A stretch of 64,000 bases of DNA from Bacteroidetes bacterium GWF2_35_48 (GTDB lineage Bacteria; Bacteroidota; Bacteroidia; Bacteroidales; GWF2-35-48). The notes under the pieces are model-generated. The model worked only from the letters and a program-made list of their open reading frames with translations, had not been told where the DNA came from and did not search any database. The stretch covers positions 11,628 to 75,627 of the forward strand of contig MEOG01000132.1 of assembly GCA_001769125.1 (NCBI GenBank). The letters are read 5' to 3'. How positions within the stretch are numbered: position 1 is the first letter of the stretch; every line of letters starts with the position of its first letter. Shown piece by piece: positions 5,172 to 58,161 of this stretch. The translations under genes were made by a program, and so were the position numbers.

Positions 5172-5315
5172 AAAACAGGCGGAGCCCGTTAATTCATCAA
5201 TTCCAAAATAAAGAGTTGAAAAGAGAATAGAAGCGTTGAAAGCAGCAATAGCAGGAGTAAATTACAAATTAATAAATGAGGTATAGTTTTTTAAAGTACA
5301 AATAATGTATAAGCT

Positions 5316-6083
5316 ATGAGAGTTATATTTACAATTTTCCTTATAATTTCTTTTAATATTTCTTTTTCTCAAACAAGCGATGAGGTAAGAATGAATAAAG
5401 AGCAGCTCGAAAAACAAAAACAACAAAATATTGAAGACGCAAGTAAAAAGATGAAAGCAGAATCAGAGGCTAATTATAAAAAGTATCTGGAAGAAAAAGA
5501 AAATGCAAAGAACCAAAATGTACAAAAATATTCATCTACACAAAAAGGCGCAAAAGCAATAGAATCTAATACAAATAATACAGGCAATAATCAGGCATCA
5601 GAAAAAAAGGAAGTTAAAGACAAACCTGATTTCACAAAAATGACAGACAGCGAAAAGGCAGCTTTCGAAAAACAAAAAGAACAAAATGTTGAAGACGCCA
5701 GAAATAAGATGAATGCGGAATCTGAGGCTAAGAATAAAAAATATCTGGGGGAAAAAGAAAATGCAAAGAACCAAAATGTACAAAAATATTCATCTACACA
5801 AAAAGGCGCAAAAGCAATAGACTCAAATACAAATAGTACCGATAATAATCAGGCTTCAGAAAAAAAGGAAGTAAAAGACCAACCTGATTTTTCAAAAATG
5901 ACAGACAGCGAAAAGACAGCTTTTGAAAAACAAAAACAACAAAATGCCGAAGATGCTAGGAAAAAGATGAATGCTGAGTCTGATGCTAATTATAAAAAAT
6001 ACCTGGAAGAACAGGATAATTTAAAGAAGCAGGCTAAACCGAAAAGTTCATCAACAATAATGAATGAAGAAGAAAAAGAATAA
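5316..6083 (+). CDS. Secreted Lys/Glu/Asn-rich tandem-repeat protein (255 aa), function unknown
   Basis: Signal peptide MRVIFTIFLIISFNISFSQ followed by ~2.4 copies of an 86-aa unit (KM.AESEA..KKYL.EKENAKNQNVQKYSSTQKGAKAI.SNTN...NNQASEKKEVKD.PDF.KMTDSEK.AFEKQK.QN.EDA). Confidence 0.7.
   Translation: MRVIFTIFLIISFNISFSQTSDEVRMNKEQLEKQKQQNIEDASKKMKAESEANYKKYLEEKENAKNQNVQKYSSTQKGAKAIESNTNNTGNNQASEKKEVKDKPDFTKMTDSEKAAFEKQKEQNVEDARNKMNAESEAKNKKYLGEKENAKNQNVQKYSSTQKGAKAIDSNTNSTDNNQASEKKEVKDQPDFSKMTDSEKTAFEKQKQQNAEDARKKMNAESDANYKKYLEEQDNLKKQAKPKSSSTIMNEEEKE
5395..6010 (+). repeat. In-frame tandem repeat, 258-bp period, ~2.4 copies
   Basis: atgcaaagaaccaaaatgtacaaaaatattcatctacacaaaaaggcgcaaaagcaatag occurs at 5503 and again at 5761 (offset 258 nt = 86 codons). 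Flanking sequence is also repeated with scattered substitutions. Confidence 0.85.
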
Positions 6084-17099: not shown

Positions 17100-19532
17100 A
17101 TGAAAAACCTATTTCACATTCTGCTGTTTTTACTGTTTTTATCGTCAGTTTTCTCGCAAAAGAATCTTAATTTTTACAAGAAAAAATATTCTTGCAAGTC
17201 TGACACATGCGCAATAAATGCGATGATAGAAGACTATAAAAAAATCAGAAAAATCAATCTGGATTCTGCTGTTCTGATTATAAAAAATGCTCATAAATTT
17301 GCTGAAAAAGTAAATGAAATTAAAACACGTTGCAGCACTACATATTTTCTGGCAGACGCTTTTGCCTATCAGGGAGATTATAAAAACAGTAATTTATATC
17401 TCGACACTGCTTTGTCCATAGCAGAAACAAATAATCTTATAAAACTCAAAGCAGAAATTCTCAATTTATTCGGCATTAATTACTCCGATCAGGGAATGTA
17501 TGAAAAATCGCTGGATTATTACAATCAGGCAAAAAATATTTCTGTACAAAATCATTTCAAAGACATGGAAGCCAAAGCAAACACGAATATTGGTGTTACA
17601 TATTACTTTCTTGGCGACCTTAATAAGGCCATTGAATATTATCTGAAATCACTCTCCATTCTTGAAGAACTAAAAGATTCTGCAAATGTTTCTATCTCCC
17701 TGTCAAATTTAAGTGTATTCTTTCAGGAAAAAGGGCAGTTGGATAAATCTTTGGAAATGCTGCAAAAAGCACTTGTATACACACCGGAATATGAACAGCG
17801 AAACCGTAGTGACGTATATAATAATATGGCGGTGACTTATACTAAAATGAAAAATATTCAGGAAGCTGTTAAATATTACAACCTGACAATTGAGATGAAA
17901 AAACACATCAACGACTATAAAGGAATGGCCATGACTTATCATAATCTGGCAGATATTTATAATAAACAGAACGATTATAATAAAGCTGAAACCTGCGCAC
18001 TGAAAGCCATTGAGCTTGTTTCAGGAAAAGATGTTCCTGCCCACGAAGCAAATTTCTTACGCGGTCTCGCCAATGTATATTTTGAAAAGGGTAAAATAAA
18101 AAAAGCATTACCCTATATTTTAAAAAGCAATGAAATAGCGCTGAAAATAGATAACAAAGCTTTGGTTCGCGATAATTATTTTCTTATTGCCGATATGTAT
18201 CGTGGCATTGGCGATTATAAAAAATCTACAGATTTCATGTTTTTTTTTCAGGCATTAAATGACACTTTGCAGAAAACTGAATTTGCTGAAAATATTGCGG
18301 AGATGGAGGCCAAATATCAAAACGAAAAAAAGCAGAAAGAGATAGAATTGCTTCAGGCTGATAAAAAAAATCAGGAACTCGAAATTGAACGCAGAAAACT
18401 GTTTCAAAAAGCACTTTTCATAGGTCTTGCTATGGCTGTTCTTTTGATAATTGTTGTTACCATCAGCTATTTTCAGAAAAGGAAAGCAAACAGAATTTTA
18501 AAAGAAAAAAATGAAGAGATCAGCCAGCAGAAAGAAGAGATAACTACGCAGCGCGATGAAATCCTTGCAAAAAATGAAATTCTTTCGCAACAAAAGGAAG
18601 AAATAGAAACACAGCGCGATGAAATTCTCCTGAAAAATGAAATGCTGCAACAACAAAATGAAGAAATATCGGCGCAAAGAGATGAAATTGAAGGGCAAAA
18701 ACATATTATCGAAGAAAAAAACAAAGAAGTAATGGACAGCATTCATTATGCTCTTCGGATTCAACGCGCAATATTACCTCACGAAAATCTTCTGAAAAAT
18801 TCTTTGTCCGATTTCTTCATTTTTTACAATCCCCGTGATATTGTAAGCGGCGACTTTTATTGGTTTGCGCACAAAGAAGATTTTCTTCTTGTGGCTGCAG
18901 CAGATTGCACGGGACATGGCGTTCCCGGCGCATTTATGAGCATGCTCGGCATTTCTTTTCTAAATGAAATAATTGAAAAAAATGAAACCTGCTCCTCAAA
19001 TTTCATGCTTGATGAATTAAGAAATCATATTGTTTTTGCACTGCAACAGGGAGATGATAAAACCAATTCTTCCGTCTCATCATCGGTAAAAGACGGAATG
19101 GATATCGCACTTGTGGTCATAAATCTGAAAACAGGACTGCTCCATTTTTCCGGGGCGAATAATCCTGTATATGTGGCATCGCCCCATGGTATGGCATCAT
19201 CGTCCCATGGGACGATGTTACATGCCATAACCCCCGACAAACAACCTATCGGTCTGTATGAGAAAATGGAGCCCTTTACGGTTAAAGAATTACAATTACA
19301 GAAAGGCGACAGCGTGTACCTGTTTTCAGACGGTATTGCAGATCAGTTTGGTGGTCCAAAAGCCGATAGCGGTGGAAAAAAATTCAAATATAGCCGACTG
19401 AAACAATTATTCATAGACAACAATCATTTGTCAATGCAGGAACAAAAGCAAATAATAATATCGGAAATTAGAAAATGGCAAGGTACGCTCGAACAAGTTG
19501 ACGACATGCTCCTAATAGGTCTGAAATACTAA
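17100..19532 (+). CDS. TPR-repeat sensor, single TM helix, E/Q-rich heptad coiled coil, PP2C/SpoIIE-family serine phosphatase (810 aa)
   Basis: Signal/TM N-terminus, ~8 TPR-like repeats, TM helix ALFIGLAMAVLLIIVVTISYF. Three 21-aa repeats follow (EEISQQKEEITTQRDEILAKN and relatives). The SpoIIE/PP2C blocks are DSIHYALRIQRAILP, SGDFYWF, ADCTGHGVPGAFMSMLG and DGIADQFGG. Confidence 0.85.
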   Translation: MKNLFHILLFLLFLSSVFSQKNLNFYKKKYSCKSDTCAINAMIEDYKKIRKINLDSAVLIIKNAHKFAEKVNEIKTRCSTTYFLADAFAYQGDYKNSNLYLDTALSIAETNNLIKLKAEILNLFGINYSDQGMYEKSLDYYNQAKNISVQNHFKDMEAKANTNIGVTYYFLGDLNKAIEYYLKSLSILEELKDSANVSISLSNLSVFFQEKGQLDKSLEMLQKALVYTPEYEQRNRSDVYNNMAVTYTKMKNIQEAVKYYNLTIEMKKHINDYKGMAMTYHNLADIYNKQNDYNKAETCALKAIELVSGKDVPAHEANFLRGLANVYFEKGKIKKALPYILKSNEIALKIDNKALVRDNYFLIADMYRGIGDYKKSTDFMFFFQALNDTLQKTEFAENIAEMEAKYQNEKKQKEIELLQADKKNQELEIERRKLFQKALFIGLAMAVLLIIVVTISYFQKRKANRILKEKNEEISQQKEEITTQRDEILAKNEILSQQKEEIETQRDEILLKNEMLQQQNEEISAQRDEIEGQKHIIEEKNKEVMDSIHYALRIQRAILPHENLLKNSLSDFFIFYNPRDIVSGDFYWFAHKEDFLLVAAADCTGHGVPGAFMSMLGISFLNEIIEKNETCSSNFMLDELRNHIVFALQQGDDKTNSSVSSSVKDGMDIALVVINLKTGLLHFSGANNPVYVASPHGMASSSHGTMLHAITPDKQPIGLYEKMEPFTVKELQLQKGDSVYLFSDGIADQFGGPKADSGGKKFKYSRLKQLFIDNNHLSMQEQKQIIISEIRKWQGTLEQVDDMLLIGLKY

Positions 19533-19537
19533 TACAC

Positions 19538-21982
19538 ATGGTAAATCTGTTGAAAATATCAATTAATTTTCTGCTTCTTTTCTGTTTTTTTATTATTATT
19601 ATTTTTGCAAAAGCAGGCACAACAAAAATTGACAGTTTAGAAAATTTACTGAAATCATCTTCAGATACAAGTCGGCTATCCACCATTATTTTACTTGTTT
19701 GGGAGTACAGAGGGATTAATCCGGACAAAAGTTTATCCTATGCAGAAGAAGGATATCTGCTTGCTGACAAACTAAAACAACCTCTAAAAAAAGGGAAGCT
19801 TTTTAGTCAGGCAGGTAATGTTTATTTAAGATTAGGCAACTTTCATAAAGCACTTGAATATTTCAACAAATCTCTTGTTATTCATAACCGCGAAAAAGAT
19901 ACTTCCGGAATAATGACCTCGCTAGGGAATATTGGAAATTGTTATGGTTATATGGGCGATTATGAAAAAAGTGAAAAGTATCTTTTGCGTTCTGTTGAAA
20001 TTTCAAAAAAATCGGGAATTAAAAAAAACATATCGGCAATACTGGGAAACCTTGCAATTATATATGTTGACAGAGGACAATTCTCCAAAGCATTAGAATA
20101 CTATCAGGCTGCTATAACAGCTTGCGAAGAACAAAACGATCAGAATAATCTTAGCTTTTGTCTGGCAAATATAGGGCAATTATATTACCAGCTTGAAAAT
20201 AACAAGGAAGCTGTATCTTATTTAGAAAAAGCAAGAAAAATTAAAGAAAAACAAAATGATAAAAAAGGTCTCGCCAATATTTATCAAAACCTTGGTGTGG
20301 TAAAACATGCAATGAAGGATACCGCAAAAGCTGTAGAATATTGCTCACGTGCGCTTGCCCTGCGTGAAGAAATAAAAGATATATATGGGCTTGCAGAATC
20401 CTATAATTTCTTTGCTACCCATTCGCTGAATACAGAGAATATAAAAGAAGCAATTGAATTTGCACTGAAAGCTTTGAATTTGCAAGAAAAAATGGACGAT
20501 AAGCCTGGGCTTGTTGACTCGTACCTGACTCTTGGAAAAGCATACAGGAAAAACAATGAACAACAGAAAGCAGTTCAAGCTATTCAAAAAGCGATTGAAA
20601 TCGCTACACCCATAGGTATCAAAAGGCAAATCATTGAAGCAAACAAAGAACTTGCGAGATCTTATTACAAGCTTCACAAATTCAAAGAAGCGTATGACTA
20701 TTTCAATATTTATGCGAATTTGAAGGACTCTATTCTTTCGGAAAACACACAGAAACAAATCGCAGAAATGCAGACAAAATATGAAACAGAAAAAAAAGAA
20801 AAAGAAATTGAATTACTCAATAAAGATAAATTATTGAATGAAACAGAAATAAGAAAACAAACCCTTTTGCGAAATTCATTCATAATTGGATTTGCGCTGC
20901 TATTAATACTTGCTTATCTTCTTTATACACGCTATAAAATTAAAAGAAAAGCAAATGAAGAACTTACTTTAAAAAATCAATTGATTTCCCAACAAAAAGA
21001 AGAAATATCTGCGCAACGTGACGAAATCCTTCTGAAAAATGAAGTATTGCAGCAAGCGAATGAAGAGATTACTACACAACGCGATGAAATTGATTTGCAG
21101 AAAAAAATTATTGAAGAAAAAAATCATGAAGTAATGGACAGTATCCATTACGCACTTCGAATTCAGAATGCCGTTATTCCGGATGAAACAATATTACAGA
21201 TTACTTTTGCAGATTACTTTATTCTCTTCAAACCAAAGGATATTGTTTCCGGTGATTTTTTCTGGTTTGCAAAAAGAAAACAATGGATACTTTTTGCAGT
21301 TGCCGATTGCACCGGACACGGCGTTCCCGGAGCATTCATGAGCATGCTGGGCATTAGCTTTCTTAATGAAATTGTTGCACGCCACGAAGTTCAAACAGCA
21401 GCCGATGCGCTTAATGAATTACGCAATGGAATTATAAAAGCCCTGAAGCAGAATATTTCTATAGGAAATAATAATTCTAAACAGCCATCAATCATAAGAG
21501 ACGGTATGGACATTGCCTTTTGCGCCCTGAATACCGAAACCCTCGAACTGCACTTTGCAGGGGCAAATAATCCCCTTTGGATTATTAAATTTGAAGATTT
21601 GAAAATGAATCAATTTGAAAATGAAATGTCATTATCAAATTTTCAAATTAATCAATCTTCAAATAATATTTTTGAAATCAAAGGAGACAAACAACCCATT
21701 GGTATTCACGAAAAAATGAACCCTTTTACAAATAATAAAATCCAACTTAAAAAAGGAGATATTCTTTATCTTATGAGTGATGGTTTTCAAGATCAATTCG
21801 GCGGTCTTTCAGGAAAAAAATTCATGACCAAAAAACTTAAAACCCTGCTTTCGGATATTTCCACAAAACCCTTGAAGGAGCAATACAGTATTTTAGAAAA
21901 AAAACTTTTCGACTGGCAGAACATTAATGACCAAAAATACCAGCAAACAGATGATATTACTGTTATGGGTATAAAAATATAA
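19538..21982 (+). CDS. Paralogous TPR-TM-heptad-PP2C/SpoIIE phosphatase (814 aa)
   Basis: Same architecture and motifs as the upstream gene (ISQQKEEISAQRDEILLKNEVLQQANEEITTQRDEI; DSIHYALRIQNAVIP; ADCTGHGVPGAFMSMLG). Separated from it by 5 nt. Confidence 0.85.
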   Translation: MVNLLKISINFLLLFCFFIIIIFAKAGTTKIDSLENLLKSSSDTSRLSTIILLVWEYRGINPDKSLSYAEEGYLLADKLKQPLKKGKLFSQAGNVYLRLGNFHKALEYFNKSLVIHNREKDTSGIMTSLGNIGNCYGYMGDYEKSEKYLLRSVEISKKSGIKKNISAILGNLAIIYVDRGQFSKALEYYQAAITACEEQNDQNNLSFCLANIGQLYYQLENNKEAVSYLEKARKIKEKQNDKKGLANIYQNLGVVKHAMKDTAKAVEYCSRALALREEIKDIYGLAESYNFFATHSLNTENIKEAIEFALKALNLQEKMDDKPGLVDSYLTLGKAYRKNNEQQKAVQAIQKAIEIATPIGIKRQIIEANKELARSYYKLHKFKEAYDYFNIYANLKDSILSENTQKQIAEMQTKYETEKKEKEIELLNKDKLLNETEIRKQTLLRNSFIIGFALLLILAYLLYTRYKIKRKANEELTLKNQLISQQKEEISAQRDEILLKNEVLQQANEEITTQRDEIDLQKKIIEEKNHEVMDSIHYALRIQNAVIPDETILQITFADYFILFKPKDIVSGDFFWFAKRKQWILFAVADCTGHGVPGAFMSMLGISFLNEIVARHEVQTAADALNELRNGIIKALKQNISIGNNNSKQPSIIRDGMDIAFCALNTETLELHFAGANNPLWIIKFEDLKMNQFENEMSLSNFQINQSSNNIFEIKGDKQPIGIHEKMNPFTNNKIQLKKGDILYLMSDGFQDQFGGLSGKKFMTKKLKTLLSDISTKPLKEQYSILEKKLFDWQNINDQKYQQTDDITVMGIKI

Positions 21983-39373: not shown

Positions 39374-39440
39374 AACCTTAATGTTTTTAATTTCCCCCTA
39401 CTCTTTACAGGATTTTCGGGTTGCTCCTATTATTTTTTTG
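39374..39440 (-). promoter_or_regulatory. Conserved leader cassette, copy 2 (upstream of the tail-fibre-like gene)
   Basis: The minus strand reads ATAGGAGCAACCCGAAAATCCTGTAAAGAGTAGGGGGAAATTAAAAACATTAAGGTTATGAAAAAG. Homology to copy 1 continues ~17 nt into the CDS (ATGAAAAAG.TTTTTAC). Confidence 0.6.
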
Positions 39441-51900: not shown

Positions 51901-53420
51901 CTATTACAGTAGGTTCTACAATAAAATCGTTCCCGCAATGTAAAATTTCGGCAGACAGTTTTCTTTTGGTTACCTCTGTAAATAATGAACATTTATTTTC
52001 AGGCTATGGTCGCGCTGTTGGTATGTTATCAAATGATGTGCTTACTAACTCCGGCGCAACCGTGTTGTTGAATGACAATAACGGAGTACTTATTTCAAGC
52101 GTGATTTATTCTGATTCGTGGTATAAGGATAACAACAAAAAAGAAGGAGGTTGGTCGCTTGAACAGATAGACCCATCGAATCCTTGCGGAGGAAGCAATA
52201 ACTGGACTGCTTCCACAAATATAAAAGGTGGTACTCCTAATGCTGTAAATTCAGTCTTTGCAAGCAATCCGGATAATTTAATGCCGGAGCTGGTTCATGC
52301 TGTATTAAATGCAACAAATGACAGCTTGAGGTTGTTTTTTAATGAGCCACTAAAGCAAGGGAGTATTCTTTCCGGCAGTTTTACGCTCAGCAATGGATAC
52401 ACTCCTGTTAGTGCTGCTATAATAGCGCCTGAAAACATTTCAGTAGTTCTTGCATTTACACAAGCATTCCCCGATGGCACAACCTATACCGTAACCGTAA
52501 ACAGCCCTGTTTCAGATTGTGTTGGTAATGTTATCGGAAATGAGAACACTGCAAAATTTGCAGTTGCGCAAACTCTTGCTCCCAATGACCTTGTTATTAA
52601 TGAAATTCTTTTCAACCCGATTGAACCGGCTGTAGATTTTGTGGAAATTTATAACCGCTCCAACAAAGTATTGAATTTTAAAGACGCACGTATAGCTTCA
52701 CGCAAAACAGATTTATCGTTAAATACTCCTTATGATATTGCAAAAGACGGTCGTTTGATTTTTCCCGGCGAATACTTTGTTCTTACAACAAATCCAAGCA
52801 CTGTAAAAAATCAGTATTATACAGAAAATCCTAAAAATTTCATAACAATAACAACGCTTCCTTCATTTGCCAATACATCCGGAGAAGCTGTGGTTGTTGA
52901 TAAATCTCTCGTTGTGATTGACGATTTTGCATACGATGAAAAAATGCATTACAGCCTGCTTACATCGTTTAAAGGAGTTTCTCTTGAAAGAGTAAATCCG
53001 AACCAGCCCACTGAAGATAATAACAACTGGCATTCTGCCGCGCAAAGTGTGAATTATGGAACTCCTGCCTACAAAAACTCGCAATATCTTGATATCATTC
53101 CGGCTGTAGAAGAAATAAGCCTTTTGCCCGAAGTTTTTTCTCCTGATAATGATGGATACAACGACCGGTTAATGATTTCCTATAAATTTGAACAAACAAA
53201 TTTTACAGCCAATATTACAATTTATGATGCAAAAGGAAGGCTTGTGAAAAAATTAGTTAAAAACGAACTTCTGGCAACAGAAGGCTTTTTTGTATGGGAC
53301 GGATTAAATGAATCAAACAACAAAGCAGATATTGGAATTTATTTGGTTTTTGTAGAAGTTTTTGATCTTGACGGGAAAGTAAAACAATATAAAAAAACAT
53401 GTGTTTTGGCTAGTCTGTAG
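48978..53420 (+). CDS. Giant secreted modular protein (1480 aa): four ~300-aa modules, two lamin-tail-domain (LTD)-like modules, T9SS type-B-like C-terminal domain
   Basis: Signal peptide. A module is repeated four times (F.DGDF..NP.W.GD...F.V...; ME/FQWEF.V.L...S..N..R.YL.SD...L...LNGY.L..GE; W.LY....G...Y; SbsA-Ig-like DT..P.I.SV..). The LTD motifs are VINEIMCDP..VEYIELFNRT..DISGW and VINEILFNPIEPAVDFVEIYNRS. The C-terminus is EVFSPDNDGYNDRL.I.Y. Confidence 0.8.
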   Translation: MKYLFLLFLILSLSGYTQVQENFSDGDFTNNPTWNGDATEFIVSTSTSIPTAMRPGLRLNGNAAGGVSHLYVTDTISSIDNFQWEFWVRLSLNPTSTNCARFYLVSDSSDFESNLNGYFIQIGEYSDKIGLCKQTGTTVQQLITGTVANLNVTSSQIRIKVTRDNTGLWKLYSDPVGGSVYQLEGSVTDLTYSSSFFSGIFAKYTSSNYQGFFFDDIYIGAIPVDTTAPEIVSVTVISPTALDIVFSEPVDLATAETNSNYFVTNNVGNPSSATRDASQFSLVHLIFSSPFPDGLTDTIYVYNVQDSEGNAIDTISETFIYQSIPTQFSDAFTDGNFTQNPAWFGDDSLFLCEQISGNYLLRLNGTVPKTACLYTQLALQDSMEWQFDVRVNLSPSSTTYLKVFLASDQNNLTGSLNGYYLQMGESNATDVVRLFRMDGTTPAEICSGTTNISAPFLMRIKVVKHASGEWKLYTAPYGGTNYSLEASGTDATYTDLNYFGLLCKYSTSSYAKEFYFDNFYAGLIVPDTIPPSITSVSISTASTIAVLFSEPLLTSTAQDTANYILNSGAGNPVSAVTDISNPALVHLTFGNNFIGNTYYTLTVENVQDLSGNTIASASSSFYYIEAPAMVYDDFSDGDFYSNPTWEGDVGKFMVNDQQRLELFTMLSTGYDTAYLSTPVNISLDSMEWQVYIKLLFAPSDNNNLRYYLMSDNANLKSSLNGYFLKIGENGSSDAIELYRQDGTTTSLVCRGQDGLMGTSYPFARIKVRHKTNGEWTIYADTTGSYNFQYQVSGNDNTYNLELFNFGPWCKFSSSYDEEKFFYDDIYTGPYINDTISPVLNNLVLIDSTQLQLYFSENISPTEANNLANYFVNRGVGNPFVAEQSIFNGSIVSLRFSAPFKEDTIYSITISNIKDSEGNLISAPISKTFSYHITKPYDVVINEIMCDPTPVVTLPEVEYIELFNRTHFDIDISGWTITVGSTIKSFPQCKISADSFLLVTSVNNEHLFSGYGRAVGMLSNDVLTNSGATVLLNDNNGVLISSVIYSDSWYKDNNKKEGGWSLEQIDPSNPCGGSNNWTASTNIKGGTPNAVNSVFASNPDNLMPELVHAVLNATNDSLRLFFNEPLKQGSILSGSFTLSNGYTPVSAAIIAPENISVVLAFTQAFPDGTTYTVTVNSPVSDCVGNVIGNENTAKFAVAQTLAPNDLVINEILFNPIEPAVDFVEIYNRSNKVLNFKDARIASRKTDLSLNTPYDIAKDGRLIFPGEYFVLTTNPSTVKNQYYTENPKNFITITTLPSFANTSGEAVVVDKSLVVIDDFAYDEKMHYSLLTSFKGVSLERVNPNQPTEDNNNWHSAAQSVNYGTPAYKNSQYLDIIPAVEEISLLPEVFSPDNDGYNDRLMISYKFEQTNFTANITIYDAKGRLVKKLVKNELLATEGFFVWDGLNESNNKADIGIYLVFVEVFDLDGKVKQYKKTCVLASL

Positions 53421-53507
53421 AATCGTTCCATGGAACGATTGTACAGTACAAATCAAAAATTTTAAATTCCAAAAAAATAAAATCAATAAATAATATCATA
53501 AATCATC

Positions 53508-54386
53508 GTGGATAATTTCGATACACCTTTATCAATCTCAGAAGAAGATTTGAAGCGTTTTATTGAAGCAATAAAAACAGCTTCTACGTATGATTTTTCT
53601 GAGTATTCAGAGAAATCGCTTATGCGAAGGTTAGAAAAAGTTCTTTCTGACAATCAGATGGAAATTTCCGGTTTTATAGACCGCCTCAAGCAGGATACAT
53701 CTTTTCTTGAAAAAACCATAAAAGATATTACGGTTAATACCACAGAGCTTTTCAGGGATCCTACTGCTTGGCACATGTTAAAATACAATGTACTGCCACT
53801 GATAGCGCAAAATGACGAAATCAATATCTGGCATGCAGGATGTTCTACCGGACAGGAAGTATATTCAATGATGATTATGCTTAATGAAATGGGCTTGCTG
53901 AACAAAACAAACATTTATGCATCAGACCTGAATTCTGATGTTATTGAAACAGCAAAAAAAGGCGTTTACAAATACAGATTTAATCTTTTATACCTTGATA
54001 ATTTCGATAAGGTTTTAAAAGAAAATCCCCACGACCCGGGCAATAAAGCAGAAGTGTCTTACTCAAAATATTTTGATATTAATAAAGTGAAAGACACTAT
54101 TTCCATGAATAGCTTCCTGCAGAAAAAACCTCTGTACAAAAAACACGATCTTGTTACAGAACCTAATCCTTTTCCTGGTGTGGCTTATGACCTTATTCTA
54201 TGCAGAAATGTAATTATCTATTTTAATTATAATTTACAGAATAAAGTTTTCAGTTTGTTTTTTAACAATATTAAAATAAACGGAGCGCTATTGCTGGGAA
54301 TGCATGAATCAATGCTGGGGCCTATTTCATCAAGATTTGAAAAGAAAGGCCAATTGTATATAAAAAGTAAAAAACTGAACCCCTGA
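53508..54386 (+). CDS. cheR: CheR-type protein-glutamate O-methyltransferase
   Basis: N-terminal helical domain followed by TELFRDPTAW, the SAM-binding block INIWHAGCSTGQEVYSMMIML, and DLILCRNVIIYF. GTG start, with an in-frame TAA three codons upstream. Confidence 0.8.
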   Translation: MDNFDTPLSISEEDLKRFIEAIKTASTYDFSEYSEKSLMRRLEKVLSDNQMEISGFIDRLKQDTSFLEKTIKDITVNTTELFRDPTAWHMLKYNVLPLIAQNDEINIWHAGCSTGQEVYSMMIMLNEMGLLNKTNIYASDLNSDVIETAKKGVYKYRFNLLYLDNFDKVLKENPHDPGNKAEVSYSKYFDINKVKDTISMNSFLQKKPLYKKHDLVTEPNPFPGVAYDLILCRNVIIYFNYNLQNKVFSLFFNNIKINGALLLGMHESMLGPISSRFEKKGQLYIKSKKLNP

Positions 54387-54393
54387 TATTCAC

Positions 54394-55224
54394 ATGTACG
54401 GTTTTAATTTAACAGATCAGGATTTAAACAAACTGACATTTAGACTGAAAGAATTATGCGATGTGGATTACAGCAATTATGCTAAATCTGCTTTTCGCAT
54501 AAGCCTTAACTCTTTTATGCAAAGCCATGCTATTTATTCTATTGACGAACTTATTTTTCGGCTGGCAAAAGATCCTCTTCTGGCAGAATTTATGATAAAA
54601 GATATTGCTATTGAAGATTCAGAAGCATTCAGGGATACACTTGTCTGGAAGATTATCCGCTTTGATATTATCAAAGAATTGTATGAAAAAAGGGAAGAAA
54701 AATTAAGGATATGGATTCCCGGTTGTACTACAGGAGACGAATTGTATTCTTTGTGTATTTTGTTGAAAGAAAATTTTTTCATGGATAAGGTGGAGCTAAT
54801 GGCTTCCAGTATCAGCGAGAAATATATTGAGCTGATTAAAACAGGCATGTTCAGTATTAAAAAAAGCGAAATCAATCAGGCAAATTATTTACGCTATAAA
54901 GGAAAAGCAGATTTTAAAAACTACTATACTGTAAGCGGAAACAAAGCGCACTGGGATACTTCTCTGATTGAACAGGTTCGTTTTTTGCCAGCCCGTACCC
55001 TGTTTAAATCGCCCCCTGAAAATATTCAGTTTATTTTTTTCAGGAACAGAATGCTTTATTATAATTATCATCTGCAATTACAATTGTTGAACACATTTTA
55101 CCAATGCTTCAGCAATGATGGATTTCTTATTCTTGGAGCAAAAGAAACACTTTCAAATTTTAACATGAAAGCAAAATATGCTACTGTAAATGAAAACGAA
55201 AGTGTTTACAAAAAAATCTCATAA
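54394..55224 (+). CDS. Second, more divergent CheR-like methyltransferase
   Basis: EAFRDTLVW, LRIWIPGCTTGDELYSLCILL, FIFFRNRMLYY. Same architecture as the upstream gene but lower conservation. Confidence 0.7.
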   Translation: MYGFNLTDQDLNKLTFRLKELCDVDYSNYAKSAFRISLNSFMQSHAIYSIDELIFRLAKDPLLAEFMIKDIAIEDSEAFRDTLVWKIIRFDIIKELYEKREEKLRIWIPGCTTGDELYSLCILLKENFFMDKVELMASSISEKYIELIKTGMFSIKKSEINQANYLRYKGKADFKNYYTVSGNKAHWDTSLIEQVRFLPARTLFKSPPENIQFIFFRNRMLYYNYHLQLQLLNTFYQCFSNDGFLILGAKETLSNFNMKAKYATVNENESVYKKIS

Positions 55225-55240
55225 ATATTTTTTCTGAAAA

Positions 55241-55804
55241 ATGACAAACAAAGCAGTTATCATAGGTGGGTCGGCCGGAAGTTTTCAAGTAGTAATTCGG
55301 ATATTAAGTCAAATTCCGAAATCTTTCCCCTATCCCCTATTCTTGTGCCTGCATAGACTAAAGCATGTCAGGGAGGGATTCGTTGAAGCACTTTCCATTA
55401 AATCAAATATCACTATTTTAGAACCGAATGATAAAGACAGAATCAAGCCCGGCATTGCTTATCTTGCTCCTTCCAATTATCATTTATTAATAGAACCGGA
55501 ATTTCATTTCGCACTATCTTCAGGCGAGCCGATAAACCACTCACGTCCTTCTATTGATTTATCGTTTGCCTCTGCGGCTTATGCTTACAGAAACAATCTT
55601 ACCGGAATAATTTTATCGGGTGCCAACAAAGATGGGGCGTTAGGATTAAAAGCTGTAGCAGATTTTGAAGGAACAACGATTGTTCAGGATCCAAACGATT
55701 GCCAGATTCGCACCATGACAGAATCTGCAATTAAAACAGCAAGGGTTGATCATGTGTTAAGTACAGATCAGATTATTGCTTTTCTGGCAAAAATGACAGG
55801 TTAA
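55241..55804 (+). CDS. cheB: CheB-type methylesterase domain protein without a receiver domain
   Basis: AVIIGGSAGSFQVV (nucleophile Ser block), AYLAPSNYHLLIE, HSRPSIDLSFASAA, GIILSGANKDGALGLKAV. 187 aa, catalytic domain only. Confidence 0.8.
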   Translation: MTNKAVIIGGSAGSFQVVIRILSQIPKSFPYPLFLCLHRLKHVREGFVEALSIKSNITILEPNDKDRIKPGIAYLAPSNYHLLIEPEFHFALSSGEPINHSRPSIDLSFASAAYAYRNNLTGIILSGANKDGALGLKAVADFEGTTIVQDPNDCQIRTMTESAIKTARVDHVLSTDQIIAFLAKMTG

Positions 55805-58161
55805 AATTTTAATCCCACAATCAGAACATCATCTGTCTGCGAATTGGTTCCGCACCATTGATCAAAGGTTTCAGCAAGGATACGCTGCTGTTCTTTTACC
55901 GGGTATTGATGGGTTGCGTTTATCAGTTTTTCCAGCCGCGATAATCCGAATTTGTCCTGCATAGCACCTCCGAACTGATCTGCATATCCATCAGTGAAAA
56001 GATAAATGCAAGTACTCGGAGTAATAATTATTTCGTAATTTTTAAATTCCGGTTTTGATTTGTATGATATAAGTCCGCCAATTGAAAAAATGCTTCCCTT
56101 GATAATATTCAGCTTATTCTCCTGAACTGCATATATTGTCTGATCAGCTCCTGCCACAAGCGCCCGGTTCGTTTTTTTATCAACCATGCAAATAGAAACA
56201 TCCATGCCGTCATCCTGCATATTGTGTTCATCCCGGCCCTGATTCAATAGCTTTATAATTGCTTTATTCATTTTTTCCAGAATGACAGAAGGTGTAAATA
56301 TTTTTTCTTCTTTCACTATCTGATTTAAAATAGTATTTCCAATCATGCTCATCAATGCGCCCGGCACACCATGACCTGTACAATCTGCAATTGCTGCAAT
56401 AAAGCGATCATCATCTCCATAGAACCAATAAAAATCGCCACTTACAACAGCCTTGGGTCTGTAAAAAATAAAATGGTCGGGATTGTGTTTACTTATGTCT
56501 TCATGTCTTGGTAAAATTGCATCTTGAATTAACTTTGCGTATTGAATGCTGTCTTTTAGTAATTCATTTTGCTGATTCAGTTCTTTGTACATAAAATCAA
56601 GGCTGTCGCGCTGCGAAGAAATTTCTTCATTCTGCTGCTTGATTTCTTCATTCTGCTGCCGTATTTCTTCTTCGGCTTCTTTAATGTCTGTTATTTCAGC
56701 TTCAATGGCAACAAGTTTCACTATCTGCTGAGAAGAATTCATTATGGGAGTCAGCGTGGTTTGTATCCAGATAGAAATTCCATATTTATTCGTAGCAGGA
56801 AAAACATAAACCACAGAGCGTTTATTCTCTATACAATCATTAATCAAGTCTGAAACATGCTTGTTATTTTTGTGATCAAGAATGTTGTTACCGCGTTGTT
56901 TAACATATTCCTCTTTTGTGAAACCCCAGAGTTTGCAGAACCCTTCATTTACCCATTCAATATAACCTTCATTATCGGCAATAATAACCGAGTTATCTGT
57001 TTCACGTGCAACAATAGACAGTTTTTCAAGCTCTTTGTTTACGTCTTCCAGATAATCGCGTTGCGATTTCAACTCTTCGTTCTGCTGTTTTATTTCTTCT
57101 TTTTGCTGCTGAATTTCTTCTTCGGCTTCTTTTATTTTGGTTATATCTGTATCAATAATAACAAGCTTTTTAACGCTTCCGTCTTTATTATATGCGGGCG
57201 TCAGTGTTGTTTGCACCCATATTTTTTTGCCTTCCTTTGTTTCCCCCTGACTAGAATAAATAACAGGCATGCGACTTCCGAGACACTCGATAAATGCTTC
57301 CAAAAAATCAGAATGTGCGTTTGCCTTGATAATGTTTGCGCCTTTGGCAGCAATGTATTCATCAAAAGTATAACCATAAAGCTTGGTAAAACCATCGTTT
57401 ACCCATTCAATAATTCCTTCAACAGTTGCAATAGTAACAGCATTGTCTGTTTCACTGGCAACAATGGATAGCTTCTCTAGTTCTTTATTAATTTCCTGTA
57501 ATTTACTTTTTTGTGTTTCCAATTCGGCCTGACTTTTTTCCGAGTCTTCAAGCAAGTGCTGCACTTTTTTATTCGCTTCTTCCTTAAACCTGTATGAGCG
57601 TTCACGCGTAGATTCAAAAACGTAAGATAAAATAGCAACGGCAATATACGAAGCGATAAATCTGAATTTAACACCCGGGGCATATTCGCATATAGATTGT
57701 CTGAAACTATCAATTTCAGGTAAAATATATACGACAATAGCCGCAAGACAAAGAGAAGCGAGTATTAAAAAAAGACCAACTCTTCTTCCAATAATGAAAA
57801 AAGCAGTCGGAGGAAGCACATAAAACCATACAAATCCTGATTTGTCGAATCCTCCATCATACAATAAATAAACAGAAAGGCACAACATTAACACGATTAC
57901 CGAATAGCCCGGAAATATATGGTCTTTGGTACGACGCATGTAGAAAAAAAAGAAAACAAAAATAGAGGCAAAAGAAAACAAAACAATCGCTAAAGTAATT
58001 TTCTCCTGATAAAAATCCATAATACCAAGAAGCAACATAAAAAATATACCAACGGAACTATACAGGTTCACCAGCATAATTTTTCTTGTCTTTTCGTGAT
58101 CAAGAGAATCTTTCGTGTCGCTTGTCGCAAGATTCAGGAAAATGTCTCTATACCTTGCCAT
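55801..58161 (-). CDS. Multi-pass membrane sensor with two PAS domains, E/Q-rich heptad linkers and a C-terminal PP2C/SpoIIE phosphatase (786 aa)
   Basis: About 6 predicted TM helices in the first 190 aa. Two PAS-like blocks (ETDNAVTIATVEGIIEWVNDGFTKLYGYT and ETDNSVIIADNEGYIEWVNEGFCKLWGFT). Linkers AEEEIQQQKEEIKQQNEELKSQRD and AEEEIRQQNEEIKQQNEEISSQRD. PP2C blocks DSIQYAKLIQDAILP, SGDFYWF, ADCTGHGVPGALMSMIG and DGYADQFGG. The stop codon overlaps the cheB stop. Confidence 0.85.
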   Translation of the reverse strand: MARYRDIFLNLATSDTKDSLDHEKTRKIMLVNLYSSVGIFFMLLLGIMDFYQEKITLAIVLFSFASIFVFFFFYMRRTKDHIFPGYSVIVLMLCLSVYLLYDGGFDKSGFVWFYVLPPTAFFIIGRRVGLFLILASLCLAAIVVYILPEIDSFRQSICEYAPGVKFRFIASYIAVAILSYVFESTRERSYRFKEEANKKVQHLLEDSEKSQAELETQKSKLQEINKELEKLSIVASETDNAVTIATVEGIIEWVNDGFTKLYGYTFDEYIAAKGANIIKANAHSDFLEAFIECLGSRMPVIYSSQGETKEGKKIWVQTTLTPAYNKDGSVKKLVIIDTDITKIKEAEEEIQQQKEEIKQQNEELKSQRDYLEDVNKELEKLSIVARETDNSVIIADNEGYIEWVNEGFCKLWGFTKEEYVKQRGNNILDHKNNKHVSDLINDCIENKRSVVYVFPATNKYGISIWIQTTLTPIMNSSQQIVKLVAIEAEITDIKEAEEEIRQQNEEIKQQNEEISSQRDSLDFMYKELNQQNELLKDSIQYAKLIQDAILPRHEDISKHNPDHFIFYRPKAVVSGDFYWFYGDDDRFIAAIADCTGHGVPGALMSMIGNTILNQIVKEEKIFTPSVILEKMNKAIIKLLNQGRDEHNMQDDGMDVSICMVDKKTNRALVAGADQTIYAVQENKLNIIKGSIFSIGGLISYKSKPEFKNYEIIITPSTCIYLFTDGYADQFGGAMQDKFGLSRLEKLINATHQYPVKEQQRILAETFDQWCGTNSQTDDVLIVGLKF

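What the first reader, a model, noticed from the sequence alone, without database searches (positions are those of the whole stretch)
53508..58161. Orphan cheR-cheR-cheB methylation module welded stop-to-stop to a PAS-PAS-PP2C membrane sensor with Glu/Gln-rich heptad linkers
Three consecutive plus-strand genes encode two CheR-type methyltransferases and a receiver-less CheB-type methylesterase. No cheA, cheW, MCP or flagellar gene is visible in 64 kb, and the organism looks like a T9SS-bearing Bacteroidota. The cheB stop overlaps (TTAA, 55801-55804) the stop of a convergent 786-aa sensor, so the two transcription units terminate inside each other. In that sensor each PAS domain and the PP2C domain is preceded by an E/Q-dense heptad segment (AEEEIQQQKEEIKQQNEELKSQRD and AEEEIRQQNEEIKQQNEEISSQRD). 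From memory, fused CheB-CheR-PAS-kinase proteins carry very similar (N/Q)EE(L/I) heptad runs directly after the CheR domain. My inference is that these coiled-coil E/Q pairs act as the methyl-accepting and deamidation sites instead of an MCP. That would make a two-enzyme adaptation module tuning a Ser/Thr phosphatase output. I am not aware of such a split, MCP-less CheR/CheB-PP2C circuit having been characterised.
Basis: partly seen in the sequence, partly recalled or inferred. Interest (0 to 1): 0.62.

Follow-up and report, generated by a model that had tools for sequence, protein, structure and literature searches.

The report
Chemotaxis-free CheR/CheB module beside PP2C sensor
An uncultured groundwater Bacteroidales bacterium carries a receptor methylation/demethylation enzyme set that seems to tune phosphatase-type sensors rather than chemotaxis receptors, although its tight junction with the neighbouring sensor gene looks like a species-specific accident.

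Summary
The genes, domains, TTAA stop overlap and both quoted heptad runs are real.

The source is the MAG "Bacteroidetes bacterium RIFOXYA12_FULL_35_11".

**Against the "welded" reading.**
- Orthologues of the sensor sit next to sppA/pyrI, never next to the triad. In one MAG they lie on another contig.
- Four other species of the triad's own clade have unrelated genes downstream of cheB.

**For the underlying idea.**
- In the sister clade, 66 of 68 informative species loci show one co-directional cluster: cheR1-[GAF sensor]-cheR2-cheB-GAF-GAF/PAS/PP2C-SiaB-like-SiaC-ABC.
- The motif EE-hydrophobic-x4-EE-hydrophobic occurs in 51/51 and 72/74 of the two cluster sensors, and in 2 of 2,183 other ORFs.
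- In the window it occurs only in PP2C sensors.
- CheB-REC-PP2C fusions exist in Bacteroidota.
- A Nostoc CheB-CheR-kinase fusion carries six NEEL heptads.

**Corrections.**
- CheR2 lacks the SAM-ribose Asp in 77/77 sequences, so it is probably not a methyltransferase.
- A characterised precedent exists: Bacillus cereus RsbM methylates the signalling helix of RsbK, upstream of the PP2C RsbY.

**Verdict.** This is a new variant of a known kind. Methylation of the adjacent sensor is plausible but unproven.

The parts
53413..53449 (+). Stable hairpin just after the stop of the upstream LTD/Big_5 surface-protein gene. It probably separates that gene from the che triad.
   Evidence: RNA fold gives -18.4 kcal/mol, z = -6.0, with 0 of 200 shuffles as stable. 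The consensus terminator scan did not flag it because no clean U-tract follows.
53508..54386 (+). cheR1: an intact CheR-type protein-glutamate methyltransferase (292 aa, GTG start).
   Evidence: Pfam CheR_N plus CheR. Best PDB match is B. subtilis CheR 5FTW, E 6e-29. The motifs AGCSTGQE, [ST]D[LI]N and CRNV are conserved in 69-70 of 70 orthologues. dN is 0.17-0.18 with saturated dS against L017 and L018.
54394..55224 (+). cheR2: a divergent CheR paralogue (276 aa), probably catalytically inactive.
   Evidence: Pfam hits the CheR SAM domain only. The Asp aligned to the ATDID motif of 5FTW is Ser here and is never Asp or Glu in 77 of 77 orthologues. The first Gly of motif I is variable across the family. 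The gene evolves faster than its neighbours (46-57% aa identity; dN/dS 0.13-0.28 where calculable).
55241..55804 (+). cheB: a receiver-less protein-glutamate methylesterase/glutaminase (187 aa).
   Evidence: Pfam CheB_methylest covers residues 6-181 with no REC domain. GGSAGS Ser11, His38 and Asp131 are invariant in 16 diverse homologues. These are the positions I take, from the CheB literature, to be the Ser-His-Asp triad.
55801..55804 (.). TTAA shared by the two convergent stop codons.
   Evidence: Read directly from the sequence. The junction is present in all same-species contigs L001-L010 where both genes are on the contig. It is absent from every other species examined.
55801..58161 (-). 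A SiaA-type membrane sensor phosphatase: MASE6-PAS-PAS-PP2C (786 aa).
   Evidence: Pfam. NCBIfam SiaA scores 203 bits over aa 488-786, below the 700-bit equivalog cut-off. PDB 6K4E, which I identify from memory as the P. aeruginosa SiaA PP2C domain, matches at E 3.5e-39. The AF2 model has mean pLDDT 84.
57595..58086 (-). MASE6 membrane-embedded sensor module (aa 26-189).
   Evidence: Pfam PF20966, E 2.1e-13. AF2 predicts helices H23-149 and H162 onward.
57136..57444 (-). PAS domain 1 (aa 240-342).
   Evidence: Pfam PAS_9. AF2 predicts a PAS-like alpha/beta fold over this range.
57061..57120 (-). First triple Glu-Glu heptad run, EEIQQQKEEIKQQNEELKSQ (aa 348-367), in the PAS1-PAS2 linker.
   Evidence: Regex and heptad register. 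AF2 predicts a helix over 341-360, then pLDDT falls below 50 up to residue 384.
56704..57000 (-). PAS domain 2 (aa 388-486).
   Evidence: Pfam PAS_3 and PAS. PDB PAS chains match at E 4e-7.
56515..56691 (-). Signalling helix from PAS2 to PP2C (aa 491-549). It holds the second triple Glu-Glu run, EEIRQQNEEIKQQNEEISSQ (aa 498-517, nt 56611-56670).
   Evidence: AF2 predicts one continuous helix H491-549 with pLDDT about 80-85. The bin aa 501-520 is the most conserved 20-aa bin of the part of the protein I profiled (aa 181-780), at 0.89 against a whole-protein mean of 0.64 among 5 orthologues.
55807..56415 (-). PP2C/SpoIIE phosphatase domain (aa 583-785).
   Evidence: Pfam SpoIIE, E 1.9e-17. The motifs DCTGHGVPG, DGMD and DD are invariant or nearly so among 30 family members.
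17100..21982 (+). Two further PP2C sensors (TPR-TM-SpoIIE). Their juxtamembrane helices carry tandem QQ[KN]EEIx[TA]QRDEI units, so they are possible additional substrates.
   Evidence: Pfam, sequences, and one strict-motif hit in the first of the two.

Best explanation
**What it is**
- cheR1-cheR2-cheB is an MCP-independent protein-glutamate methylation/demethylation module of a Bacteroidales-wide family.
- CheR1 is the active methyltransferase.
- CheR2 is a degenerate paralogue, perhaps a substrate-binding partner.
- CheB is a constitutively competent esterase because it has no receiver domain.

**How it most likely works (inferred)**
- The substrates are heptad-spaced Glu-Glu pairs on the signalling helices of sensor proteins whose output is a SiaA-type PP2C phosphatase.
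- Methylation neutralises charge on the coiled coil and biases the helix conformation, which sets phosphatase activity.
- Adaptation would arise because the two enzymes prefer opposite conformations of the helix, so no CheA-to-CheB phosphorylation is needed.

**What is specific to this window**
- In the window's clade the module has no sensor or partner-switch genes adjacent to it, and it probably acts in trans on several PP2C sensors.
- The adjacent MASE6-PAS-PAS-PP2C, with two triple Glu-Glu runs, is a plausible substrate.
- The TTAA stop overlap is a species-specific rearrangement junction, not part of the mechanism.

**Shown versus inferred**
- Shown: domain content, catalytic motifs, conserved synteny, gene fusions and motif distribution.
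- Inferred: the methyl-acceptor sites, the effect on the phosphatase, and the trans action.
For: 1. **Distribution.** At least 589 species-representative genomes encode this stand-alone CheB.
2. **Conserved operon.**
   - 66 of the 68 best loci with at least 4.5 kb downstream have GAF(260 aa)-GAF/PAS/PP2C directly after cheB.
   - 54 loci carry the full set with DUF6272, SiaC and TerB-ABC.
   - Gene ends abut or overlap.
3. **Partner switch.**
   - DUF6272 matches chain A of PDB 6KKO at E 4.6e-12.
   - The SiaC-family protein matches chain C of 6KKO at E 6e-18. From memory, 6KKO is the P. aeruginosa SiaB-SiaC complex.
   - The window sensor's PP2C matches 6K4E at E 3.5e-39.
4. **Helix conservation.**
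   - The helix after the GAF domain is NEE[E/Q]LRQNAEEMRATQEEL in the PP2C sensor, with a bin identity of 0.89 against a protein mean of 0.73.
   - It is QEEEMRQNMEEL.ATQEE in the long GAF protein, at 0.86 against 0.44, by far its most conserved part.
   - The Glu pairs are invariant or nearly so. One of the three heptad-equivalent positions is E in 40, Q in 31 and R in 2 sequences, as I would expect of a deamidation/methylation site.
5. **Motif specificity.** EE[ILMV]x4EE[ILMV] occurs in 51/51 long GAF proteins, 72/74 PP2C sensors and 2/2,183 other ORFs. In the window it occurs only in the sensor (4 hits) and one TPR-PP2C (1 hit).
6. **Fusions.**
   - CheB-REC-PP2C fusions make up most of the 120 listed clusters in Bacteroidota.
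   - In both contexts examined they sit in GAF-PAS-HK / REC / CheR / CheB-REC-PP2C operons.
   - The kinase there carries SEEELRVQQEELMQSN.
7. **In-cis example.** Nostoc CheB-CheR-kinase BBD62782.1 has six NEEL heptads.
8. **Experimental precedent.** RsbM methylates the S-helix of RsbK (PMC4574943).
9. **Enzyme integrity.** CheR1 and CheB keep their catalytic motifs and are under strong purifying selection in the unlinked clade.
10. **Contrast.** The crystallised part of the 6K4E chain has a coiled coil without the tandem EE motif. From memory, P. aeruginosa SiaA has no dedicated CheR.
Against: - No methylation has been observed for any protein of this family.
- A profile HMM built from the sister-clade helix does not detect the window sensor's linkers (no hit at E up to 10). 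The similarity is therefore at pattern level only.
- The linker core AE[E/Q]EIxxQxE[E/K]I is shared by a very large paralogous PAS-PP2C family with many members per genome.
  - Its second site is Lys in about 30% of members.
  - It could therefore be mainly structural.
- The residues after the Glu pairs are Q-Q rather than the small A-S/T residues of the classical MCP consensus.
- The adjacency to this sensor is not conserved.
- No SiaB-like or SiaC-like gene is found in the 64 kb.
- The rest of the genome was not searchable, so MCP/CheA/CheW or a canonical GAF-PP2C cluster elsewhere cannot be excluded.
- At least one Bacteroidota plasmid does carry CheA and CheW.
Confidence: 0.5

Rival explanations
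1. The triad is a real non-chemotaxis CheR/CheB module, but its substrate is encoded elsewhere, for example a GAF-S-helix sensor or a hybrid kinase. The neighbouring MASE6-PAS-PAS-PP2C is then an unrelated gene brought alongside by rearrangement.
For: - Sensor orthologues are syntenic with sppA/pyrI and not with the triad.
- The triad's conserved neighbour is the upstream LTD surface protein.
- Downstream genes differ in every species of the clade.
- One relative (L106) has hybrid kinases downstream instead.
- The sister-clade helix HMM does not hit the window sensor.
Against: - The sensor carries two triple EE-hydrophobic runs. This pattern is otherwise almost confined to CheR/CheB-linked sensors.
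- The run before the PP2C domain is its most conserved profiled segment.
- The hybrid kinases beside the triad in L106 lack the strict motif.
Confidence: 0.27
2. The Glu/Gln-rich linkers are ordinary coiled-coil signalling helices. CheR/CheB acts on some other site or protein, for example the small GAF protein or SiaC.
For: - The linker motif is generic to a huge PAS-PP2C paralogue family.
- DIT.RK.AEE-type PAS C-caps are common (my own knowledge).
- The HMM comparison was not significant.
Against: - In the long GAF protein the helix is about twice as conserved as the rest (0.86 against 0.44).
- The Glu pairs are invariant across 49-73 species, and one position shows an E/Q-only polymorphism.
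- The same motif accompanies CheR/CheB in four independent architectures (PMC4574943).
- The small GAF protein, SiaC and the SiaB-like protein have no such motif.
Confidence: 0.15
3. The triad is the adaptation arm of a conventional chemosensory pathway (MCP, CheA, CheW) encoded elsewhere in the genome.
For: - The genome outside the 64 kb was not searchable.
- A Cytophagales plasmid has PAS protein-CheW-RR-CheA-SpoIIE-CheB-CheR, so che pathways exist in the phylum.
Against: - No CheA, CheW or MCPsignal Pfam hit in the window ORFs scanned.
- No MCP tip motif in the window or in 106 related loci, about 766,000 aa of six-frame ORFs.
- The family's conserved partners are non-MCP proteins.
- CheB lacks the receiver that CheA would phosphorylate.
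- The Persicobacter enzymes are only about 31% identical to CheR1, and the CheB there is annotated as the full-length, receiver-bearing form.
Confidence: 0.08

Closest known systems
Bacillus cereus RsbK-RsbM-RsbY sigma-B module
   Same: - A CheR-type methyltransferase (RsbM) is encoded next to a non-MCP sensor.
- It methylates the signalling helix that follows the sensor's GAF domain.
- The pathway output is a PP2C phosphatase acting in a partner switch (PMC4574943).
   Different: - There the methyl-acceptor is a hybrid histidine kinase, and the PP2C (RsbY) is a separate receiver-coupled protein.
- RsbM has no cognate esterase.
- Here an esterase and a second, degenerate CheR are present.
- In the sister clade the candidate acceptor is the PP2C sensor itself.
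- The partner switch is of the SiaB/SiaC type rather than RsbV/RsbW.
Pseudomonas aeruginosa SiaABCD
   Same: - The sensor's phosphatase domain is SiaA-like (E 3.5e-39 to 6K4E).
- The sister-clade cluster encodes proteins matching both chains of PDB 6KKO, which I recall as the SiaB-SiaC complex.
   Different: - No SiaD diguanylate cyclase is present. A TerB-ABC transporter follows instead.
- No CheR or CheB is known for Sia (my own knowledge).
- The crystallised part of 6K4E lacks the tandem EE heptads.
- No SiaB or SiaC gene is found in this window.
Classical CheR/CheB adaptation of methyl-accepting chemotaxis proteins (E. coli, Salmonella, B. subtilis)
   Same: - Homologous enzymes with intact catalytic motifs.
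- The candidate sites are Glu pairs at 7-residue spacing on a coiled coil, one of them with an E/Q polymorphism.
- The sister-clade site EEMRAT fits the EExxA[ST] consensus as I recall it from the literature.
   Different: - No MCPsignal domain, CheA or CheW was found.
- CheB has no receiver.
- The second CheR is degenerate.
- The output is a Ser/Thr phosphatase.
Fused CheB-CheR-PAS histidine kinases (for example Nostoc sp. HK-01 BBD62782.1)
   Same: Non-chemotaxis CheB and CheR domains occur together with a tandem NEEL heptad helix and PAS domains.
   Different: - There everything is in one polypeptide with a kinase output.
- Here the enzymes are split into three genes and the partner output is PP2C.
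- Function is uncharacterised in both cases.
Bacteroidota CheB-REC-PP2C fusion operons (L103, L104)
   Same: - CheB of the same broad family is physically fused to a PP2C.
- An adjacent CheR and a GAF-PAS kinase with an EE-heptad helix accompany it.
   Different: - There a kinase phosphorylates the receiver of the CheB-PP2C protein, giving feedback as in chemotaxis.
- In the window there is no receiver and no kinase.

Membership tests
CheR protein-glutamate O-methyltransferase | CheR_N plus class-I SAM-binding domain with motif I and the acidic residue that binds the SAM ribose | tested here: met
   This row concerns CheR1. Both Pfam domains are above cut-off. AGCSTGQE, [ST]D[LI]N and CRNV are conserved in 69-70 of 70 orthologues.
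CheR protein-glutamate O-methyltransferase | The same catalytic features, in the second gene (CheR2) | tested here: not met
   The SAM domain is recognised, but CheR_N is below threshold. The acidic post-motif-I residue is S, T, V, Y or C in 77 of 77 sequences. The first Gly of motif I is variable.
CheR protein-glutamate O-methyltransferase | Methylates Glu of a methyl-accepting chemotaxis protein | not testable with these tools
   No MCP was found in the window or in related loci. Enzyme activity needs biochemistry.
CheB methylesterase/glutaminase | Ser-His-Asp catalytic triad in a CheB_methylest domain | tested here: met
   Pfam E 1.1e-46. S11, H38 and D131 are invariant in 16 homologues. 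Assigning them to the triad rests on my knowledge of Salmonella CheB.
CheB methylesterase/glutaminase | N-terminal receiver phosphorylated by CheA (canonical chemotaxis CheB) | tested here: not met
   The protein is 187 aa with no Response_reg hit. Its nearest relatives at 50% clustering are mostly about 190 aa.
Methyl-accepting chemotaxis protein (as a label for the sensor) | MCPsignal domain with the conserved hairpin tip that binds CheA and CheW | tested here: not met
   The sensor's Pfam domains are MASE6, PAS and SpoIIE only. The tip motif regex finds nothing.
SiaA-type PP2C sensor / SiaABC partner switch | PP2C domain of the SiaA lineage with metal-binding motifs | tested here: met
   6K4E matches at E 3.5e-39 over aa 511-786. 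DCTGHG, DGMD and DD are conserved. NCBIfam SiaA scores 203 bits, below the 700-bit equivalog cut-off, so it is a relative and not an equivalog.
SiaA-type PP2C sensor / SiaABC partner switch | Adjacent SiaB kinase and SiaC phosphoprotein | tested here: not met
   phmmer with sister-clade SiaB-like and SiaC proteins finds nothing in the 64 kb. They are present in 54 full sister-clade clusters.
RsbK/RsbM-type methylatable S-helix system | CheR-type gene linked to a non-MCP sensor that carries a heptad Glu-rich signalling helix | tested here: inconclusive
   This is met in the sister clade. In the window the helix motif is present, but the linkage to this sensor is not conserved.
RsbK/RsbM-type methylatable S-helix system | Demonstrated Glu methylation of the helix | not testable with these tools
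   It has been shown only for B. cereus RsbK (PMC4574943).

The most novel reading that the evidence does not exclude
Bacteroidales use SiaA-type PP2C sensor phosphatases as their methyl-accepting receptors.
- One CheR, one pseudo-CheR and a receiver-less CheB would give chemoreceptor-style sensory adaptation to a Ser/Thr partner-switch network, with no CheA, CheW or MCP.
- In the window's clade the unlinked triad would serve a whole repertoire of PP2C sensors in trans, including MASE6, TPR and YfiR-like types, much as one CheR/CheB pair serves many MCPs.
Probability: 0.35. Interest if true: 0.8.

Novelty: new variant of a known kind. Interest (0 to 1): 0.6.

Why it matters
- Reversible glutamate methylation is the textbook memory device of bacterial chemotaxis. 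Outside chemoreceptors, the only characterised case I found is RsbK/RsbM.
- A conserved cluster of about ten genes couples CheR/CheB to a SiaABC-type phosphatase switch. It was present in 66 of the 68 informative Bacteroidales species loci examined, and the CheB family itself occurs in at least 589 species genomes.
- If the coupling is functional, adaptation by methylation is a portable module that can be attached to Ser/Thr phosphatase signalling.
- It would also give a concrete, testable system:
  - defined Glu sites;
  - a candidate pseudo-enzyme partner;
  - natural split, operonic and fused variants.
- For this window specifically, the result warns that a striking stop-to-stop overlap can be a rearrangement scar rather than a functional link.

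Tried and rejected
- **Helix HMM.** I built a profile HMM of the sister-clade helix and searched the window ORFs. It gave no hit to the sensor at E up to 10. I therefore fell back on an explicit regex with counted background.
- **Partner-switch genes in the window.** phmmer with sister-clade SiaB-like, SiaC, small GAF, long GAF, TerB-ABC and the two unknown proteins found only the three PP2C proteins.
- **Terminators.** The consensus terminator scan found nothing at the junction, and promoter-like sites were at shuffle level.
- **Metagenome scan.** A scan for more members of the window's clade returned only 2 distant loci.
- **Literature.**
  - I found no paper on a CheR/CheB-PP2C or CheR/CheB-SiaABC system in Bacteroidota.
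  - PMC3401578 is not held.
- **Ancestry.** An NJ tree of CheB places the unlinked triads as sister to the operonic clade, not nested within it. I therefore could not decide whether the unlinked state is derived.
- **Rejected idea.** I considered that the upstream LTD surface protein is co-transcribed with the triad. A strong hairpin separates them.
- **Not possible.**
  - Scanning the rest of this MAG or the complete genomes CP065006.1 and CP070654.1 for MCP, CheA and CheW.
  - Modelling a CheR-helix complex, because chimeric inputs are not accepted.

Full report
**1.

The four ORFs lie at the stated coordinates. Pfam assigns the following:

| Coordinates | Strand | Domains |
|---|---|---|
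| 53508-54386 | + | CheR_N and CheR |
| 54394-55224 | + | CheR SAM domain only |
| 55241-55804 | + | CheB_methylest only (187 aa, no receiver) |
| 55801-58161 | - | MASE6, two PAS domains, SpoIIE |

- NCBIfam adds that aa 488-786 of the sensor resemble the biofilm phosphatase SiaA. The score is 203 bits, below the equivalog cut-off.
- The stops overlap in GTTAA at 55800-55804.
- The gaps within the triad are 7 and 16 nt.
- Both quoted heptad runs exist. EE-[I/L] triplets start at aa 348, 355 and 362, and at 498, 505 and 512. In the best-scoring heptad phase the hydrophobic residue sits at position a and the Glu pair at f and g.
- An AlphaFold2 model (mean pLDDT 84) makes aa 491-549 one continuous helix from PAS2 into the PP2C domain. 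It makes aa 341-360 helical as well.
- The helix before PAS1 is charged but lacks the EE motif.
- No CheA, CheW, MCPsignal or flagellar family hits any of the 37 window ORFs I scanned, which cover most ORFs of at least 150 aa.
- T9SS sorting domains are present.
- The source record names the organism "Bacteroidetes bacterium RIFOXYA12_FULL_35_11", a groundwater MAG.

**2. The stop-to-stop junction is specific to this species**

All ten contigs that carry the identical CheB come from the same population. They show the same arrangement wherever both genes are on the contig. Beyond that species the two genes separate.

- *Sensor orthologues.*
  - P0122, P0123 and P0124 (59-62% identity, same architecture) lie downstream of the sppA-type peptidase S49, as in the window.
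  - None of them is next to the triad.
  - P0124 is in MAG GCA_016212695.1 on contig JACREX010000176. That MAG's triad is on contig JACREX010000117 (L017).
- *Triad relatives.*
  - CheB of the closest relatives is 72-77% identical.
  - In L017, L018 and L105 the triad follows the same giant LTD/Big_5 surface-protein gene as in the window.
  - Downstream of cheB come, in four species, a secreted protein, an ABC ATPase, MTHFR, and rubrerythrin plus hybrid kinases.
- *Reading.* The window therefore shows two conserved synteny blocks that happen to meet. The 4-nt overlap is best read as a rearrangement junction.
- *Upstream boundary.* A strong hairpin after the upstream gene (-18.4 kcal/mol, z = -6) suggests the triad is its own transcription unit.

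**3. The family context does tie this CheR/CheB set to PP2C sensors**

- The stand-alone CheB is found in at least 589 species-representative genomes, nearly all Bacteroidales MAGs.
- I annotated the best 80 loci with HMMs built from three reference clusters.
- 66 of the 68 loci with enough downstream sequence share one co-directional cluster. Its gene order is:
  1. cheR1
  2. an optional GAF sensor of about 730 aa, present in 41 of 61 loci
  3. cheR2
  4. cheB
  5. a GAF protein of about 260 aa
  6. a GAF/PAS/PP2C sensor of about 875 aa
  7. a DUF6272 protein
  8. a SiaC-family protein
  9. a TerB-ABC transporter
  10. two unknown proteins
- 54 loci carry the full set.
- Gene ends abut or overlap.
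- The DUF6272 protein matches chain A of PDB 6KKO at E 4.6e-12. The SiaC-family protein matches chain C at E 6e-18. From memory, 6KKO is the P. aeruginosa SiaB-SiaC complex.
- The window sensor's PP2C matches 6K4E at E 3.5e-39. I recall this entry as the SiaA phosphatase domain.
- The sister clade thus hard-wires the triad to a SiaABC-type partner switch.
- A neighbour-joining tree places the window's unlinked triads as a monophyletic sister group of the operonic clade. The tree has no support values, so the ancestral state is open.

**4. The Glu-Glu heptads are the common denominator**

*Conservation in the cluster sensors*
- In the cluster's PP2C sensor, the helix after the GAF domain reads NEE[E/Q]LRQNAEEMRATQEEL. 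Its bin identity is 0.89 against a protein mean of 0.73.
- In the long GAF protein it reads QEEEMRQNMEEL.ATQEE. Its bin identity is 0.86 against 0.44, which makes it by far the most conserved part.
- The Glu pairs are invariant or nearly so in 73 and 49 species.
- One of the three heptad-equivalent positions is E in 40, Q in 31 and R in 2 sequences. I would expect this pattern of a deamidation/methylation site.
- EEMRAT fits the classical EExxA[S/T] consensus, as I recall it from the chemoreceptor literature.

*Specificity of the strict pattern EE[ILMV]x4EE[ILMV]*

| Set | Proteins or ORFs with the pattern |
|---|---|
| Long GAF proteins | 51 of 51 |
| Cluster PP2C sensors | 72 of 74 |
| Other ORFs of the 80 loci | 2 of 2,183 (one looks like a fragment of the long GAF protein) |
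| Window | only the sensor (4 hits, two triple runs) and one TPR-PP2C (1 hit) |

*The same motif in three other CheR/CheB contexts*
- The kinase of GAF-PAS-HK / REC / CheR / CheB-REC-PP2C operons in Bacteroidota carries SEEELRVQQEELMQSN.
- The Nostoc CheB-CheR-kinase fusion BBD62782.1 has six consecutive NEEL heptads.
- B. cereus RsbK has an S-helix that is experimentally methylated by the CheR-type RsbM (PMC4574943).

*Contrast*
- The crystallised part of the 6K4E chain has a coiled coil without the tandem EE pattern. From memory, P. aeruginosa SiaA has no dedicated CheR.

**5. Caveats on the helix argument**

- A profile HMM of the sister-clade helix does not detect the window sensor (no hit at E up to 10). 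The resemblance is a pattern, not demonstrable homology of the segment.
- The sensor belongs to a very large Bacteroidota family of PAS-PAS-PP2C proteins.
  - Their N-terminal modules are interchangeable: MASE6, YfiR-like, Reg_prop/Y_Y_Y, TPR, hydrogenase-like, and MASE8-GAF.
  - All share the linker DI[T/S]K[I/L]K.AE[E/Q]EI..Q.E[E/K]I..Q+D.LE..N.ELEKLS.
  - In about 30% of instances the second site has Lys, which cannot be methylated.
- The MASE6 orthologues stand out because they have three EE pairs per run. The run before the PP2C domain is also their most conserved profiled segment, at 0.89 against a mean of 0.64.
- The window's two TPR-PP2C genes carry tandem QQ[KN]EEI.[TA]QRDEI units.
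- If the model is right, many PP2C sensors are substrates, as many MCPs are for one CheR/CheB pair. If it is wrong, this is simply the family's coiled coil.

**6. The enzymes**

- *CheR1.*
  - It keeps every SAM-binding and catalytic motif in 69-70 of 70 orthologues.
  - It carries a conserved insertion of about 25 aa that is absent from B. subtilis CheR.
- *CheR2.*
  - It aligns to the same fold (5FTW, E 2.4e-15).
  - The Asp of the ATDID motif is never Asp or Glu in 77 of 77 sequences. From knowledge of class-I methyltransferases, this residue binds the SAM ribose.
  - The first Gly of motif I drifts.
  - It is probably a pseudo-methyltransferase that was retained for binding.
- *CheB.* The positions I take to be the Ser-His-Asp triad are invariant.
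- *Selection.*
  - In the unlinked clade, CheR1 and CheB have dN of about 0.17-0.18 with saturated dS.
  - CheR2 has dN/dS of 0.13-0.28 where it can be calculated.
  - All three genes are therefore maintained.
- *Relatives.*
  - At 50% clustering, the nearest CheB relatives are mostly stand-alone proteins of about 190 aa.
  - There are occasional fusions to REC-PP2C, REC-kinase or CheR.

**7. Most likely mechanism**

*Shown*
- An intact methyltransferase, an intact receiver-less esterase and a degenerate CheR.
- Family-level genetic coupling to GAF/PAS sensors with PP2C output.
- A helix motif that is specific to those partners.

*Inferred*
- CheR1 methylates, and CheB demethylates, the heptad Glu residues on the dimeric signalling helix.
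- Charge neutralisation shifts helix packing and so sets PP2C activity towards a SiaC-like phosphoprotein.
- Adaptation would rely on conformation-dependent substrate preference, because there is no kinase-to-CheB feedback.
- In this genome the module probably acts in trans. The neighbouring sensor is a candidate substrate only because of its motif, not because of its position.

I put this at about 0.5. The rivals are:

| Rival | Confidence |
|---|---|
| The substrate is encoded elsewhere | 0.27 |
| The helices are purely structural | 0.15 |
| A conventional che pathway exists elsewhere in the genome | 0.08 |

The last rival cannot be dismissed on phylum grounds. A Persicobacter plasmid carries CheW, CheA, SpoIIE, CheB and CheR together.

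**8. Novelty**

- The principle has a characterised precedent in RsbK/RsbM/RsbY: a CheR-type enzyme methylates a non-MCP signalling helix upstream of a PP2C partner switch.
- The following appear to be undescribed:
  - the reversible version, with a CheB;
  - the degenerate second CheR;
  - the PP2C sensor itself as candidate acceptor;
  - the SiaB/SiaC-type switch with an ABC transporter;
  - the cluster's wide conservation in Bacteroidales.
- Eight literature searches found nothing on it.
- I rate it a new variant of a known kind and moderately to highly interesting. The window itself shows only the unlinked form.

Noticed in passing
window 17100-19532 and 19538-21982 (+): Two tandem TPR-TM-SpoIIE sensor phosphatases. 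Their juxtamembrane helices contain three or four tandem QQ[KN]EEIx[TA]QRDEI units. This points to a repeat-expanded signalling helix in the same PP2C family.
   Followed up: partly
window 48978-53420 (+); also L017, L018, L105: A giant LTD/Big_5/CHU_C surface protein (1,480 aa here, 1,887-2,406 residues as stop-to-stop ORFs or called genes in relatives). It is conserved directly upstream of the che triad in four species of the unlinked clade. A strong hairpin at 53413-53449 separates it from cheR1.
   Followed up: partly
window 54394-55224 (+) and 77 orthologues: CheR2 has lost the SAM-ribose Asp in every sequence but is conserved as a gene. This suggests a pseudo-methyltransferase partner of CheR1.
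   Followed up: yes
L011, L013, L015, L019-L096 (sister-clade loci): A conserved cluster of about ten genes: cheR1-[GAF sensor]-cheR2-cheB-GAF-GAF/PAS/PP2C-SiaB-like(DUF6272)-SiaC-TerB/ABC transporter-two unknowns. It has no diguanylate cyclase, so the transporter may be the output of the partner switch.
   Followed up: partly
L103 4218-10818; L104 3802-10827: CheB-REC-PP2C fusion proteins make up most of the 120 clusters listed for Bacteroidota. In the two contexts examined they sit in operons with a GAF-PAS kinase, a single receiver and a CheR. In L103 an ECF sigma factor follows.
   Followed up: partly
L108 (Persicobacter psychrovividus plasmid pPP4): A full che-like cluster with a PP2C in a cultured Bacteroidota: PAS protein-CheW-response regulator-CheA-SpoIIE phosphatase-CheB-CheR. 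CheA and CheW are therefore not absent from the phylum.
   Followed up: no
window 39395-39429 (-): A DUF805b RNA motif (Rfam RF02914, 39.2 bits, E 1.4e-7) lies just upstream of an ORF with a Peptidase_S74 (endosialidase chaperone) domain at 38024-39373.
   Followed up: no
window 519-7553 (+): Three consecutive ORFs of 1,550, 255 and 489 aa have no Pfam match at E up to 1e-4.
   Followed up: no
L025 1476-3037: One sister-clade genome has an extra pair upstream of cheR1, an enlarged DUF6272 protein (394 aa) and a SiaC protein, in addition to the usual pair downstream.
   Followed up: no
window 53508-54386, CheR1 aa ~155-190: A conserved insertion of about 25 aa (YKYRFN..YLDNFDKV.KENP...) relative to B. 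subtilis CheR 5FTW. It may be the element that recognises a non-MCP helix.
   Followed up: no
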